Below, piece after piece: positions 16,231-18,586 of a stretch of 64,000 nt of DNA (position 1 is the stretch's first letter; each line of letters begins with the position of its first letter). Origin of the DNA: the human T2T-CHM13v2.0 reference genome, Homo sapiens. The stretch lies in NCBI RefSeq assembly GCF_009914755.1, contig NC_060933.1. The stretch is one strand, 5' to 3'. The notes under the pieces are model-generated. The model was given only the letters and a program-made list of their open reading frames with translations, searched no databases and was not told the origin of the DNA. Both the position numbers and the translations under genes were made by a program.

Positions 16231-16346
16231 CTGCAGAGAGGCCAAAGCTGACCCCAGGTCTGTATTCATTTTGTGTCCTTCTGTCAATATTCCTAAAACT
16301 GCTCCAGGACCCCTGATTTATTGCCTCTACAATGGGCGTTGCTAAT
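16231..16346 (+). repeat. Donor arm of a ~120-bp dispersed inverted repeat (partner at 18329-18448)
   Basis: Reverse complement aligns to 18329-18448 at roughly 85% by eye. Confidence 0.92.
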
Positions 16347-17449
16347 ACAGATCACCTTGACAGGGGTGCTCTGAGGAATAATAGGTAAACAATTGTGAGG
16401 AGCTATATAAATGCTAAATAATGATCACAGTAATAACCTTTTATTCAAGTCAGTACTGTGATAGGCAGCTCACACTCGGATGCTTTGGCAAATGTGGAAA
16501 TCAATACGGCTGCTCCCTGAGCACACCAGCACCATCCTTTAAAATAGAAAAAATAAATGAGCCGATGATCATGATATTCAAAGTGGTTAGTGATCAAATA
16601 ACTGTCTTGAGAGAAAGCTGGTGTGTGAAGTGTAAAATGGGAGTAGCAACATAATGGCACATTGCAGCACAGACCAGCTAGAGGATAACTGGGAAATGCA
16701 ACTGGATGCTTGCTGGGGCACACTCTGCCCACTCCAGGATGAGTATTGTACCCTCATCAGGACAGGCGCTGCCACCACCAAAAGCACTGGCAGACAGAAA
16801 GTGGGATGAGAAAGAGCCGGATCAGCAACATCTTTGCCAGCAGCCCCATCTGGCCCTCTTGGCCTTAGTAAACCTCCCTGGGGGAGAACTAAGAAGCTGG
16901 TACCAAGGGCCCTCCCTTGGAAGGGCACCAAGGAAGTGGGGAGGGAGGGGAGGGGGGAATGAGCATTGCATTTTCTCCTTTCTAGAATGAAATATCTGAA
17001 ATATCCCAATGCCTGGAGAGGCTTCTGCAGTCTTCATAGTGGAGCTTCCCTATACAATTGCAGATAGGAATCCATCCTTCTAGTTGTTCCTCCTTTCCCT
17101 GAAACCCCCCTTCCTTCCTTTTCTCTAAATCTCTCCTCCCCCCAACATTATATTAACACTATAAAATTATAATTTTTGTGTGTCATACTATCTCTTTGAT
17201 ATAAATATCGATGTGCCTGAACATTCTTTCCTGACTCCCACCCCACATCAGCAATTATGCGGCCATATAGGGGCACATACACGTGTGCTCACACGTACAT
17301 GCACACACACACAGCCCTCCTTTGTTAAACCCTGGCTCAGTTATTACAGAATGCTTGTGGAGTGTAGGCCACATAGCAGAAAAATTTAAATTATAGTTGC
17401 TTCTTGTTGAAAAGCAGAAAGAAAGATAACAATTAAAAAAGCAGATATT

Positions 17450-17745
17450 GGCCGGGCGCGATGGCTCACGCCTGTAATCCCAGCACTTTGGGAGGCCGAG
17501 GCGGGCGGATCACAAGGTCAGGATTTCAAGACAAGCCTGGCCAATATGGTGAAACCCCATCTCTACTAAAAATACAAAAATTAGCCAGGCATGGTGGTGG
17601 GTGCCTGTAGTCCCAGCTACTCAGGAGGCTGAGGCAGGAGAATCGCTTGAACCCGGGAGGCAGAGGTTGCAGTGAGCCGAGATGGCGCCACTGCACTCCA
17701 GCCTGGGCGACAGAGCGAGACTCTGTCTCAAACAAACAAACAAAA
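17450..17745 (+). mobile_element. AluSg-like
   Basis: Dimer; TSD aaaaaagcagatatt. Confidence 0.93.
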
Positions 17746-18109
17746 AAGCAGATATTTATTTTAAGGCTGATATCTGACACTTAATACTTTGCTGCATATT
17801 GACTAATGCTCCATAGTGACTGAGCAAGTCACTTTTCCATGGTGGGACAGGTAGACTCCATATGCTCTCTGAGGTGCTATGAGATCCCAGTGCATATTTA
17901 ACCTTTTGAGGATTGGCTAGAAATGAGGGGGTTAAAAAAGAATATGGCAAGATAGTCTTAGTCTATAGGAAGTTATGGTTTAAATTTGAGTGAGGCAGGA
18001 TCAAGATCCTAGAAAAAGTCTAATTGATTTTAACCAAATGGGATAATATTCAAATGTTAACTATACTGTGATACTGTATTTAGAGTACTTGGGGCCAGTA
18101 TGCTATATG

Positions 18110-18586
18110 CAGTGGTCCCCTACATTTTTGGCACCCGGGACCAGTTTTGTGGAAGACAATTTTTCCATGGATCGAGGGGTGGGGAGGATGGTTTTGGGAT
18201 GAAGCTGTTTCACCTCAGATCATCAGGCGTTCGTTAGGTTCTCATAAGGAGCTGCAACCTAGATCTCTCGCATGAGCAGTTCACAGTAGGGTTTGCGCTC
18301 TTATGAGAATCTAGTCTCAAATTCTACAATTAGCAGTGCCCATTGTAGAGGTAATAAATCAGGGGTCCTGGGGCGGTTTTAGACATATTGACAGAAGGAC
18401 ACAAAATAAATAACCACTGACCTGGGGCCAGCTTTGGCCTCCCTGCAGAGGCCACCACTGATGTGCCAGGAGACGGAGCTCATGCTGTAATGCTTGTCAG
18501 CTGACTGCTCACCTCCTGCTGTGCGGCCCAGTTCCTAACAGGCCATGGACTGGTACAGGTCCCCCACCGGGGTGTTGGGGACCCAG
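18110..18586 (+). mobile_element. MER1B hAT element interrupted by a 135-bp insertion
   Basis: cagtggtcccctacatttttggcacc...gagaatcta | insert | gccaccactgat...gttggggaccc. Confidence 0.85.
18314..18448 (-). repeat. Inverted templated copy of 16231-16346 plus 15-nt filler
   Basis: attagcagtgcccattgtagagg...gctttggcctccctgcag is the reverse complement of the donor. Confidence 0.92.

What the first reader, a model, noticed from the sequence alone, without database searches (positions are those of the whole stretch)
16231..18448. ~120-bp inverted copy of nearby DNA pasted into a MER1B, with a snap-back junction
Seen: the reverse complement of 16231-16346 matches 18329-18448 (~85% by eye). The second copy sits exactly between two contiguous parts of MER1B (gagaatcta | gccaccactgat), whereas the first copy runs on into its MIR-like context, so the direction is 16.3 kb to 18.3 kb. 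There is no TSD or poly-A. The junction/filler holds tctacaat (18323-18330), the reverse complement of attgtaga (18342-18349), a fold-back hairpin. Knowledge: templated insertions with filler and snap-back are hallmarks of Pol-theta end joining or replication template switching (FoSTeS/MMBIR), not L1 retrotransposition. Inference: an old, fixed repair event that created a 2-kb-loop inverted repeat able to form dsRNA in a pre-mRNA.
Basis: partly seen in the sequence, partly recalled or inferred. Interest (0 to 1): 0.8.

Follow-up and report, generated by a model that had tools for sequence, protein, structure and literature searches.

The report
Old inverted DNA patch splitting a transposon
A 120-base stretch was copied backwards from about 2 kb away and pasted into the middle of a dead transposon tens of millions of years ago; it is a clean but ordinary scar of error-prone DNA repair, with no sign of a function.

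Summary
Window 16231-16346 and 18329-18448 form an inverted pair: 105 of 120 columns are identical, with 11 substitutions and one 4-nt indel (E 1.6e-38). In the whole assembly, each arm matches only itself and its partner.

The second copy, a 13-nt filler (18316-18328) and AG (18449-18450) lie between two bases that are adjacent in every other MER1B-like copy examined. That is 39 of 39 by coordinates and 29 of 29 read at the junction. No transposon base is lost, and there is no target-site duplication or poly(A).

Short fold-backs straddle both ends of the pasted copy and neither end of the donor.

Best reading: a DNA-templated insertion, made by break repair or a replication template switch, from 16.3 kb to 18.3 kb, roughly 19-52 million years ago.

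Not supported:
- The donor is not shown to run into a MIR-like repeat.
- The region is intergenic in the hub's table, so "dsRNA in a pre-mRNA" has no basis.
- Pol theta and MMBIR cannot be separated.

It is a known kind of event and of low interest.

The parts
16231..16346 (+). Donor (presumed source) copy, 116 nt, starting at the palindrome CTGCAG
   Evidence: pair alignment. (only two places in the assembly). (no fold-back of 5 bp or more at either boundary).
18110..18315 (+). Left part of the MER1B-like hAT element (starts CAGTGGTCCCC, ends ...GAGAATCTAGT)
   Evidence: 39 other copies match it at 83-87%; alignment with 26 copies.
18316..18328 (+). 13-nt filler, CTCAAATTCTACA. The last 6 nt (TCTACA) are a fold-back copy of the insert's own TGTAGA; the first 7 nt have no established origin.
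   Evidence: the hairpin is in the minimum-energy DNA fold, matched by 4 of 200 shuffles.
18329..18448 (-). Inverted 120-nt copy of 16231-16346 (11 substitutions, one 4-nt indel)
18449..18450 (+). Two extra bases (AG) between the copy and the right transposon part. They lie inside the 7-bp right fold-back.
18451..18587 (+). Right part of the MER1B-like element (starts GCCACCACTGAT). The end is approximate because the last 3 nt have diverged.
   Evidence: right-part matches begin at query 350-405 and end at 485 at the latest..
18323..18349 (.). Left-junction fold-back: TCTACAAT / ATTGTAGA, 8-bp stem, 11-nt loop, straddling filler|copy
   Evidence: 0.8% of window positions lie in an arm of such a repeat..
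18435..18454 (.). Right-junction fold-back: TGGCCTC / GAGGCCA, 7-bp stem, 6-nt loop, spanning copy end, AG and the first 4 nt (GCCA) of the right transposon part
   Evidence: background 2.2%; in the minimum-energy fold, but 38 and 17 of 200 shuffles fold as well, so this is weak on its own.
16075..16195 (.). Old, unnamed interspersed repeat left of the donor. It does not reach the donor.
   Evidence: 4 other genomic matches at 72-83%, query 83-193; blastn and nhmmer extents.
17450..17760 (+). Alu between the two arms, with a direct repeat AAAAAAGCAGATATT on both sides. It accounts for about 307 of the 1,982 nt between the arms.
   Evidence: D3, I1, I2. (SRP/Alu-type Rfam hits at 17451-17731).

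Best explanation
This is a fixed mutational scar, not a working element. A MER1B-like hAT transposon fossil sat intact at 18110-18587. It then suffered a break, or a stalled fork, between the bases now at 18315 and 18451.

A free 3' end was extended on a DNA template about 1.7-2.0 kb upstream on the opposite strand (16231-16346), copying about 120 nt in inverted orientation. The nascent end then let go and folded back on itself, adding TGTAGA (read on the minus strand) from its own TCTACA. About 7 more nt of unknown origin were added before it joined the other broken end with no loss of transposon sequence.

At the other junction, the donor's palindrome CTGCAG and the 4-nt identity GCCA fit one of two routes. 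GCCA is shared by the first bases of the right transposon part and donor positions 16241-16244. One route is priming at that microhomology followed by a strand switch at the palindrome. The other is a second snap-back.

What is shown:
- the copy and its uniqueness
- its exact placement inside the transposon
- the filler and the fold-backs
- the age ratio (the arms diverged after only about the last third of the transposon copy's own divergence)

What is inferred:
- the break itself
- which end primed
- the enzymes: long-range synthesis of the MMBIR or synthesis-dependent type, finished by a Pol theta-like snap-back and end joining

No function is indicated.
For: 1. The pair is real: 105/120 columns identical, E 1.6e-38.
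2. It is genome-wide unique. Each arm, and the 601-nt donor region, find only these two places in the 3.1-Gb assembly. The first look gave 2 candidates for each arm alone. For the 601-nt query it gave 6: itself, the partner arm, and 4 matches confined to the old repeat at query 83-193.
3. It is an insertion. In 39 of 39 other scored MER1B-like copies, the left part ends at query 211-220 and any right-part match begins at query 350 or later; none matches query 221-349. In 29 of 29 fetched loci the sequence runs ...CTA-AT-GCC... straight through, and neither blastn (word 7, E<=1) nor nhmmer (E<=10) finds the insert there.
4. Junction asymmetry. Both ends of the pasted copy lie inside arms of short perfect inverted repeats (8 bp and 7 bp), and neither donor boundary does even at 5 bp. 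In the window, 2.2% of positions are so covered at 7 bp or more. Both p and p+120 are covered at 5.5e-4 of positions.
5. The left hairpin is the minimum-energy DNA fold on both strands (z -2.5 and -2.4; 4 and 5 of 200 shuffles).
6. Age. K2P between the arms is 0.103 (0.083 without CpG transitions). The host transposon copy is 16% (14%) from the majority of 26 copies. The event therefore came long after the transposon landed, and in place.
7. [quoted passage not shown] Snap-back reverse-complement inserts are described for Pol theta (PMC5068794, passages).
Against: - There is no outgroup genome here, so no orthologous empty site was seen. Direction and date rest on paralogous transposon copies and on rates.
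- The right fold-back is no better than shuffles in the folding test (38 and 17 of 200). The joint 5.5e-4 figure is post hoc.
- Seven filler bases (CTCAAAT) have no convincing template. The 7-8-mer matches at 16143, 17725, 17983 and 18871 are within what chance and Alu tails give.
- The microhomology-plus-palindrome model needs a 2-nt slip (CTCT to CT).
- A 120-nt copy from 2 kb away does not fit typical Pol theta inserts. It also lies outside the +/-100-nt range in which published short-range template switches were searched.
- The genome search skips very common words and scores only the best candidates, so a very old, much diverged family containing this segment cannot be strictly excluded. 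Such a family would not explain 88% identity at 2 kb distance.
Confidence: 0.8

Rival explanations
1. RNA-templated patch. A local transcript covering 16231-16346 was reverse-transcribed, or used directly, to patch a break in the transposon, as proposed for class 2 templated sequence insertions.
For: The insert has no target-site duplication and no poly(A), and its junctions carry filler and microhomology-like features. These are the features listed for class 2 events (PMC5110952, abstract and passages).
Against: The donor is only 2 kb away on the same chromosome, whereas class 2 donors are described as distant genomic regions. The hub's table annotates no transcript over the donor. A fold-back at the donor's palindromic start is more simply read as a switch between the two DNA strands. 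None of this excludes RNA.
Confidence: 0.08
2. Both segments derive from a third source that has since been lost, or the copying ran from 18.3 kb to 16.3 kb.
For: No outgroup was available. The donor is not shown to be embedded in an older repeat that would prove it original.
Against: - No third copy exists in the assembly.
- Homology ends exactly where the filler and transposon begin at 18.3 kb. That is automatic if this copy is the product and a coincidence if it is the source.
- Fold-back fillers occur only at the 18.3-kb copy.
Confidence: 0.06
3. The segment is a low-copy mobile element or an unrecognised interspersed repeat that inserted independently at both places.
For: Homology ends sharply at both ends of both copies. 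No repeat library could be consulted here.
Against: - Only two places in 3.1 Gb match, and they lie 2 kb apart.
- Neither copy has terminal inverted repeats or a target-site duplication.
- A 13-nt filler is present at only one copy.
Confidence: 0.03
4. The extra 135 nt is internal sequence of the autonomous parent (Charlie3) retained in an alternative deletion derivative, and the 16.3-kb copy is a stray fragment of another parent copy.
For: MER1A and MER1B are described as deletion products of Charlie3 (PMC3525145 and PMC5753468, passages).
Against: - No other genomic place matches the insert, although the family has thousands of relatives (4,635 first-look candidates).
- The arms differ by 9.5%, while the host copy alone is 16% from the family majority. 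Two independent old copies should therefore differ by about 25-30%.
- No transposon sequence flanks the 16.3-kb copy.
Confidence: 0.01

Closest known systems
MMBIR-type templated insertions (MMB-TI; Osia et al. 2021, PMC8421209)
   Same: An inverted copy of a nearby template is inserted with the donor retained. Junctions show short homologies and can involve several templates. Such events are known as inherited germline variants: 103 and 99 germline events (search setting >= 25 bp) in the two people studied (passages).
   Different: That work searched only for templates within 100 bp of the insertion. Here the template is about 2 kb away, the event is fixed and tens of millions of years old, and the junction homologies are fold-backs rather than plain flanking microhomology.
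Short-range template switch mutations in great apes (Walker et al. 2021, PMC7954356)
   Same: A transient switch to the opposite strand creates a reverse-complement copy, and so an inverted repeat. It has been documented as an evolutionary process in hominids (abstract and passages).
   Different: Those events are modelled with an expected copied length of about 10 nt and a +/-100-nt search space. This one is 120 nt from about 2,000 nt away and is a pure insertion.
Pol theta-mediated end joining with snap-back templated inserts (van Schendel et al. 2016, PMC5068794)
   Same: The 6-nt TCTACA filler is a reverse-complement copy of sequence 12-19 nt from the junction, primed by 2 nt. That is the snap-back geometry described there, and reiterated priming with template switching is described as well.
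   Different: Typical inserts are <25 bp (mean about 10), and about 85% are primed within 10 bp of the break. The 120-nt main copy does not fit. Dependence on the enzyme cannot be read from sequence.
Class 2 templated sequence insertion polymorphisms (Onozawa and Aplan 2016, PMC5110952)
   Same: A patch copied from elsewhere sits at a presumed double-strand break. There is no target-site duplication and no poly(A), and the junctions are of end-joining type.
   Different: Those patches come from distant regions and are argued to pass through RNA. Here the donor is local and inverted, and the event is fixed rather than polymorphic as far as can be told.

Membership tests
Templated insertion at a break or template switch (MMBIR-type signature) | The insert is a copy of another genomic sequence that is still present (copy, not cut-and-paste) | tested here: met
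   Both copies are present at 88% identity. They are the only two in the assembly.
Templated insertion at a break or template switch (MMBIR-type signature) | The template lies nearby and in inverted orientation | tested here: met
   The copy is inverted and on the same chromosome, with 1,982 nt between the arms. This is much farther than the 100 bp used by the published detectors.
Templated insertion at a break or template switch (MMBIR-type signature) | Microhomology at the switch points | tested here: inconclusive
   Right side: GCCA is shared by the transposon end and donor 16241-16244, but only in a fold-back geometry that needs a 2-nt slip. Left side: filler intervenes, with 2-nt priming for the snap-back. 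The right hairpin is not better than shuffles.
Templated insertion at a break or template switch (MMBIR-type signature) | A pre-insertion (empty) allele exists | not testable with these tools
   Only paralogous proxies are available: 29 of 29 other copies are uninterrupted. No primate or pangenome sequence is held here.
Pol theta end joining (TMEJ) templated insert | Short insert (<25 bp) templated within about 10 bp of the break (PMC5068794) | tested here: not met
   The main copy is 120 nt from about 2 kb away. Only the 6-nt TCTACA sub-filler has the TMEJ snap-back geometry.
Pol theta end joining (TMEJ) templated insert | Dependence on POLQ | not testable with these tools
   An ancient fixed event offers no genetic test.
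L1-mediated insertion (retrotransposition, class 1 templated insertion) | Target-site duplication of 5 bp or more, poly(A) tail, TTTT/A target (PMC5110952) | tested here: not met
   The flanks are ...CTAGT | ... | GCCACC... There is no duplication and no A-run at either insert end.
Interspersed repeat or nested transposon | Multiple dispersed genomic copies, with terminal repeats or target-site duplication | tested here: not met
   Only two places match, 2 kb apart. There are no terminal repeats or duplications. Limit: the search skips very common words and scores only the best candidates.
MER1B (non-autonomous hAT-Charlie element), as the host of the insertion | High-copy family of about 340 bp with terminal inverted repeats. 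The window copy is colinear with the other copies apart from the insert. | tested here: met
There are 4,635 first-look candidates, and the 39 other copies scored are 83-87% identical over the left part. The majority sequence of 26 copies starts CAGTGGTCCCCAACC and ends with its near-perfect reverse complement, 14/15 (read by eye).

The most novel reading that the evidence does not exclude
This is a kilobase-range, 120-nt inverted templated insertion with polymerase fold-back marks at both junctions. It would be a hybrid of long-range template switching and snap-back end joining, fixed in the primate lineage. Such an event is invisible to published detectors, which look only within +/-100 nt.

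If so, dead transposons split by non-repeat DNA that has a local donor could serve as built-in 'empty-site' proxies. They could be used to census this class genome-wide without outgroups. A bolder and much less likely add-on is that the 2-kb-loop inverted repeat acts as a dsRNA or editing substrate in an unannotated transcript.
Probability: 0.6. Interest if true: 0.3.

Novelty: new member of a known kind. Interest (0 to 1): 0.2.

Why it matters
[quoted passage not shown] It is unusually easy to read because the target was a transposon whose intact sequence is known from thousands of sister copies.

It shows that such events can draw on templates kilobases away, beyond the range that current detectors scan. 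It does not reveal a new mechanism, gene or regulatory element. The region is intergenic in the annotation supplied, and the nearby inverted Alus are much stronger potential duplex formers.

Tried and rejected
- **Repeat-family explanation.** Whole-assembly searches with arm 1, arm 2 plus filler, and the 601-nt donor region found no further copy of the segment.
- **Retained parent-transposon interior.** The insert was absent from 39 of 39 scored copies and 29 of 29 fetched loci. Sensitive blastn and nhmmer on those loci found nothing. The divergence argument also goes against it.
- **Donor embedded in an old repeat.** The only old repeat stops at about 16195. This support for the direction was therefore not obtained.
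- **Templates for the first 7 filler bases.** Only 7-8-mer matches were found, some of them to Alu tails. These are not distinguishable from chance.
- **A possible extra switch.** ACCACTGA occurs at the 4-nt indel inside copy 2 (18413) and again at 18454. Background for such a coincidence is 7.6%, so it was dropped.
- **A 5-bp snap-back at the left transposon end** (TGAGA/TCTCA). Background at 5 bp is 12%, so it was dropped.
- **Known RNA families.** Only Alu-type hits appear in 15500-19300, and none lies in either arm.
- **The transposon's own 8-bp target-site duplication.** It is not recognisable (GCTATATG against CAGGACAT, reading).
- **Absolute dating.** It is left wide because it depends on the assumed rate.

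Full report
**Observation**

The region was read directly and scanned for repeats. The claimed inverted match is there. There are two gapless blocks, 16263-16346/18329-18412 (84 nt, 90%) and 16231-16271/18408-18448 (41 nt, 85%). Gapped blastn joins them into one alignment of 16231-16346 against 18448-18329. It has 105 identical columns of 120 and one 4-nt gap, with E 1.6e-38 against the whole 64-kb window. All other hits of either arm in the window have E >= 0.13.

**Is it a repeat family?**

The assembly that holds the window (3.1 Gb, 24 contigs) could be searched. Three queries were run: arm 1 alone, arm 2 with its filler (E up to 10), and a 601-nt stretch around arm 1 (E up to 10). Each found only the query itself and its partner for this segment. 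For the arms alone, the first look produced just 2 candidates.

The tool warns that very common words are skipped and that only the best candidates are scored. A very old, strongly diverged family therefore cannot be strictly excluded. Such a family would not give two copies that are 88% alike and 2 kb apart.

**Is the second copy an insertion into a transposon?**

A search with 18100-18600 gave 4,635 first-look candidates, of which 40 were scored: the query itself and 39 others.
- In all 39, the left match ends at query 211-220.
- Where a right match exists, it starts at query 350-405, usually 2-10 nt further on in the other locus.
- None matches query 221-349.

I fetched 29 of these loci.
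- In 26, both halves were found, and a MAFFT alignment shows ...GAGAATCTAAT directly followed by GCCGCCGCTGATCTGA....
- The three loci without a right-half blast hit also run straight through the junction.
- Sensitive blastn (word 7, E<=1) and nhmmer (E<=10) found no trace of the insert or of arm 1 in any of the 29 loci.

In the window the left part ends ...CTAGT at 18315 and the right part starts GCCACC at 18451. No transposon base is missing and 135 nt are extra. These are a 13-nt filler (18316-18328), the 120-nt inverted copy (18329-18448) and AG (18449-18450). There is no target-site duplication and no A-run.

No repeat library was available. What was shown is a high-copy element with 14/15-matching terminal inverted repeats in the majority sequence.

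**A rival raised by the literature**

MER1A and MER1B are described as deletion derivatives of Charlie3 (PMC3525145 and PMC5753468, passages only). The extra DNA could therefore have been retained parental sequence. Three results reject this.
- The insert has no other match in the genome.
- The arms differ by only 9.5%, while the host copy is 16% from the family majority.
- No transposon sequence flanks arm 1.

**Direction**

Three things point from 16.3 kb to 18.3 kb.
- The copy at 18.3 kb is the one that splits a formerly continuous element.
- Homology ends exactly where filler or transposon begins.
- The junction oddities are confined to that copy.

The only old repeat near arm 1 matches four other genomic places at 72-83% and spans about 16075-16195. 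That leaves at least 35 nt of unassigned sequence before 16231. A lost third source or the reverse direction therefore cannot be formally excluded without an outgroup. I give these 6% together.

**Junction anatomy**

*Left junction.* TCTACAAT (18323-18330, six filler bases plus two copy bases) is the exact reverse complement of ATTGTAGA (18342-18349), with an 11-nt loop.

Read on the minus strand, the copied strand ends ...GCTAAT. It can pair its last two bases with the AT of ACAAT and be extended by TGTAGA. This is the snap-back geometry described for Pol theta (PMC5068794, passages). This hairpin is the minimum-energy DNA fold on both strands (z -2.5 and -2.4; 4 and 5 of 200 shuffles do as well).

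TGGCCTC (18435-18441) pairs with GAGGCCA (18448-18454), with a 6-nt loop. It spans the last copy base, the AG, and the first four transposon bases.

The donor starts with the palindrome CTGCAG followed by AGAGGCCA. The transposon's end (GCCA) could therefore have primed on donor 16241-16244, run into the palindrome, and switched strands there. This needs a 2-nt slip. A second snap-back would explain the junction equally well.

On its own this stem is weak: 38 and 17 of 200 shuffles fold as well.

*Empirical control.* In the window, 2.2% of positions lie inside an arm of a perfect inverted repeat of 7 bp or more with a 3-15-nt loop, and 0.8% do so at 8 bp or more. Both p and p+120 are so covered at 5.5e-4 of positions. 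Neither donor boundary is covered even at 5 bp. These statistics are post hoc.

*Unexplained remainder.* The first seven filler bases (CTCAAAT) remain unexplained. Their 7-8-mer matches nearby are within chance or are Alu-tail words.

**Age**

The arms differ at 11 of 116 aligned bases: 9 transitions (2 of them at CpG) and 2 transversions. K2P is 0.103, or 0.083 without the CpG transitions.
- At 1.0-2.2e-9 per site per year this gives about 19-52 million years.
- The 1.261e-3 per base per My reported for human DNA transposons (PMC3525145, passage) gives about 41 My, or about 33 My for non-CpG changes (my arithmetic).

The host transposon copy is 16% (14% non-CpG) from the majority of 26 copies. 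That majority was drawn from the copies most like the window's and includes a little flank. On this basis the insertion happened in place, roughly in the last third of the element's residence.

An Alu with a 15-nt flanking direct repeat lies between the arms. If it is younger than the event, the original distance was about 1.7 kb.

**Mechanism and comparison**

[quoted passage not shown] There were 103 and 99 inherited events (search setting >= 25 bp) in the two people studied, but they were sought only within 100 bp of the insertion (PMC8421209, passages).

Short-range template switches in great apes are modelled with about 10-nt copies within +/-100 nt (PMC7954356, abstract and passages). 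Pol theta inserts are mostly <25 bp and primed within 10 bp of the break. Class 2 templated sequence insertions share the lack of duplication and poly(A), but they come from distant sites and are argued to pass through RNA (PMC5110952, abstract and passages).

The present event is thus an ordinary member of the templated-insertion kind, with a longer reach (2 kb) and a longer copy (120 nt) than the catalogued short-range classes. Its junction fillers look like snap-back end joining. Which polymerases acted cannot be read from the sequence. I did not search for, or find, a paper describing this particular locus.

**Function**

The hub's gene table lists no transcript over 16-18.5 kb. Rfam finds only Alu-type matches in 15500-19300, and none lies in either arm.

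If transcribed, the arms could pair (predicted duplex -192.5 kcal/mol, longest identical run 23 nt). The neighbouring inverted Alus are far stronger (-489.5 kcal/mol). The 'dsRNA in a pre-mRNA' idea has no support here.

**Verdict**

- Novelty: a new member of a known kind.
- Interest: low, about 0.2.

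Noticed in passing
window 15714-16004, 17450-17760, 18856-19192: Three Alus bracket and separate the two arms. The middle one is inverted relative to the outer two, giving inverted pairs of 254 nt (87%) and 233 nt (83%). Rfam reports them as SRP-like and Alu-derived miRNA-family hits, of which only one (17584-17731, 70.4 bits against 70) just reaches the gathering score. 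I did not test whether these Alus were present at the time of the event and helped bring donor and acceptor together.
   Followed up: partly
window 18413-18420 and 18454-18461: The 8-mer ACCACTGA occurs inside copy 2, exactly at its 4-nt indel relative to the donor, and again in the right transposon part 41 nt downstream. This could hint at an extra brief template switch. However, 7.6% of comparable positions in the window show such a coincidence.
   Followed up: yes
window 16075-16195: An old interspersed repeat with four weak matches elsewhere in the assembly (72-83% over 57-123 nt). It could not be named without a repeat library.
   Followed up: partly
window 18314-18321: GTCTCAAA, spanning the left transposon end and the start of the filler, equals the Alu 3'-end word at 17725 and the reverse complement at 18871. 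This is probably chance, given how common the word is.
   Followed up: partly
window 18102-18109 and 18588-18595: The host transposon's own 8-bp target-site duplication is not recognisable (GCTATATG against CAGGACAT), and its last 3 nt differ from the family majority.
   Followed up: no
window 18304-18319: A 5-bp fold-back, TGAGA/TCTCA, spans the left transposon end and the first filler bases (seen in the DNA fold). It would fit a third snap-back, but 12% of window positions lie in such 5-bp repeats.
   Followed up: yes
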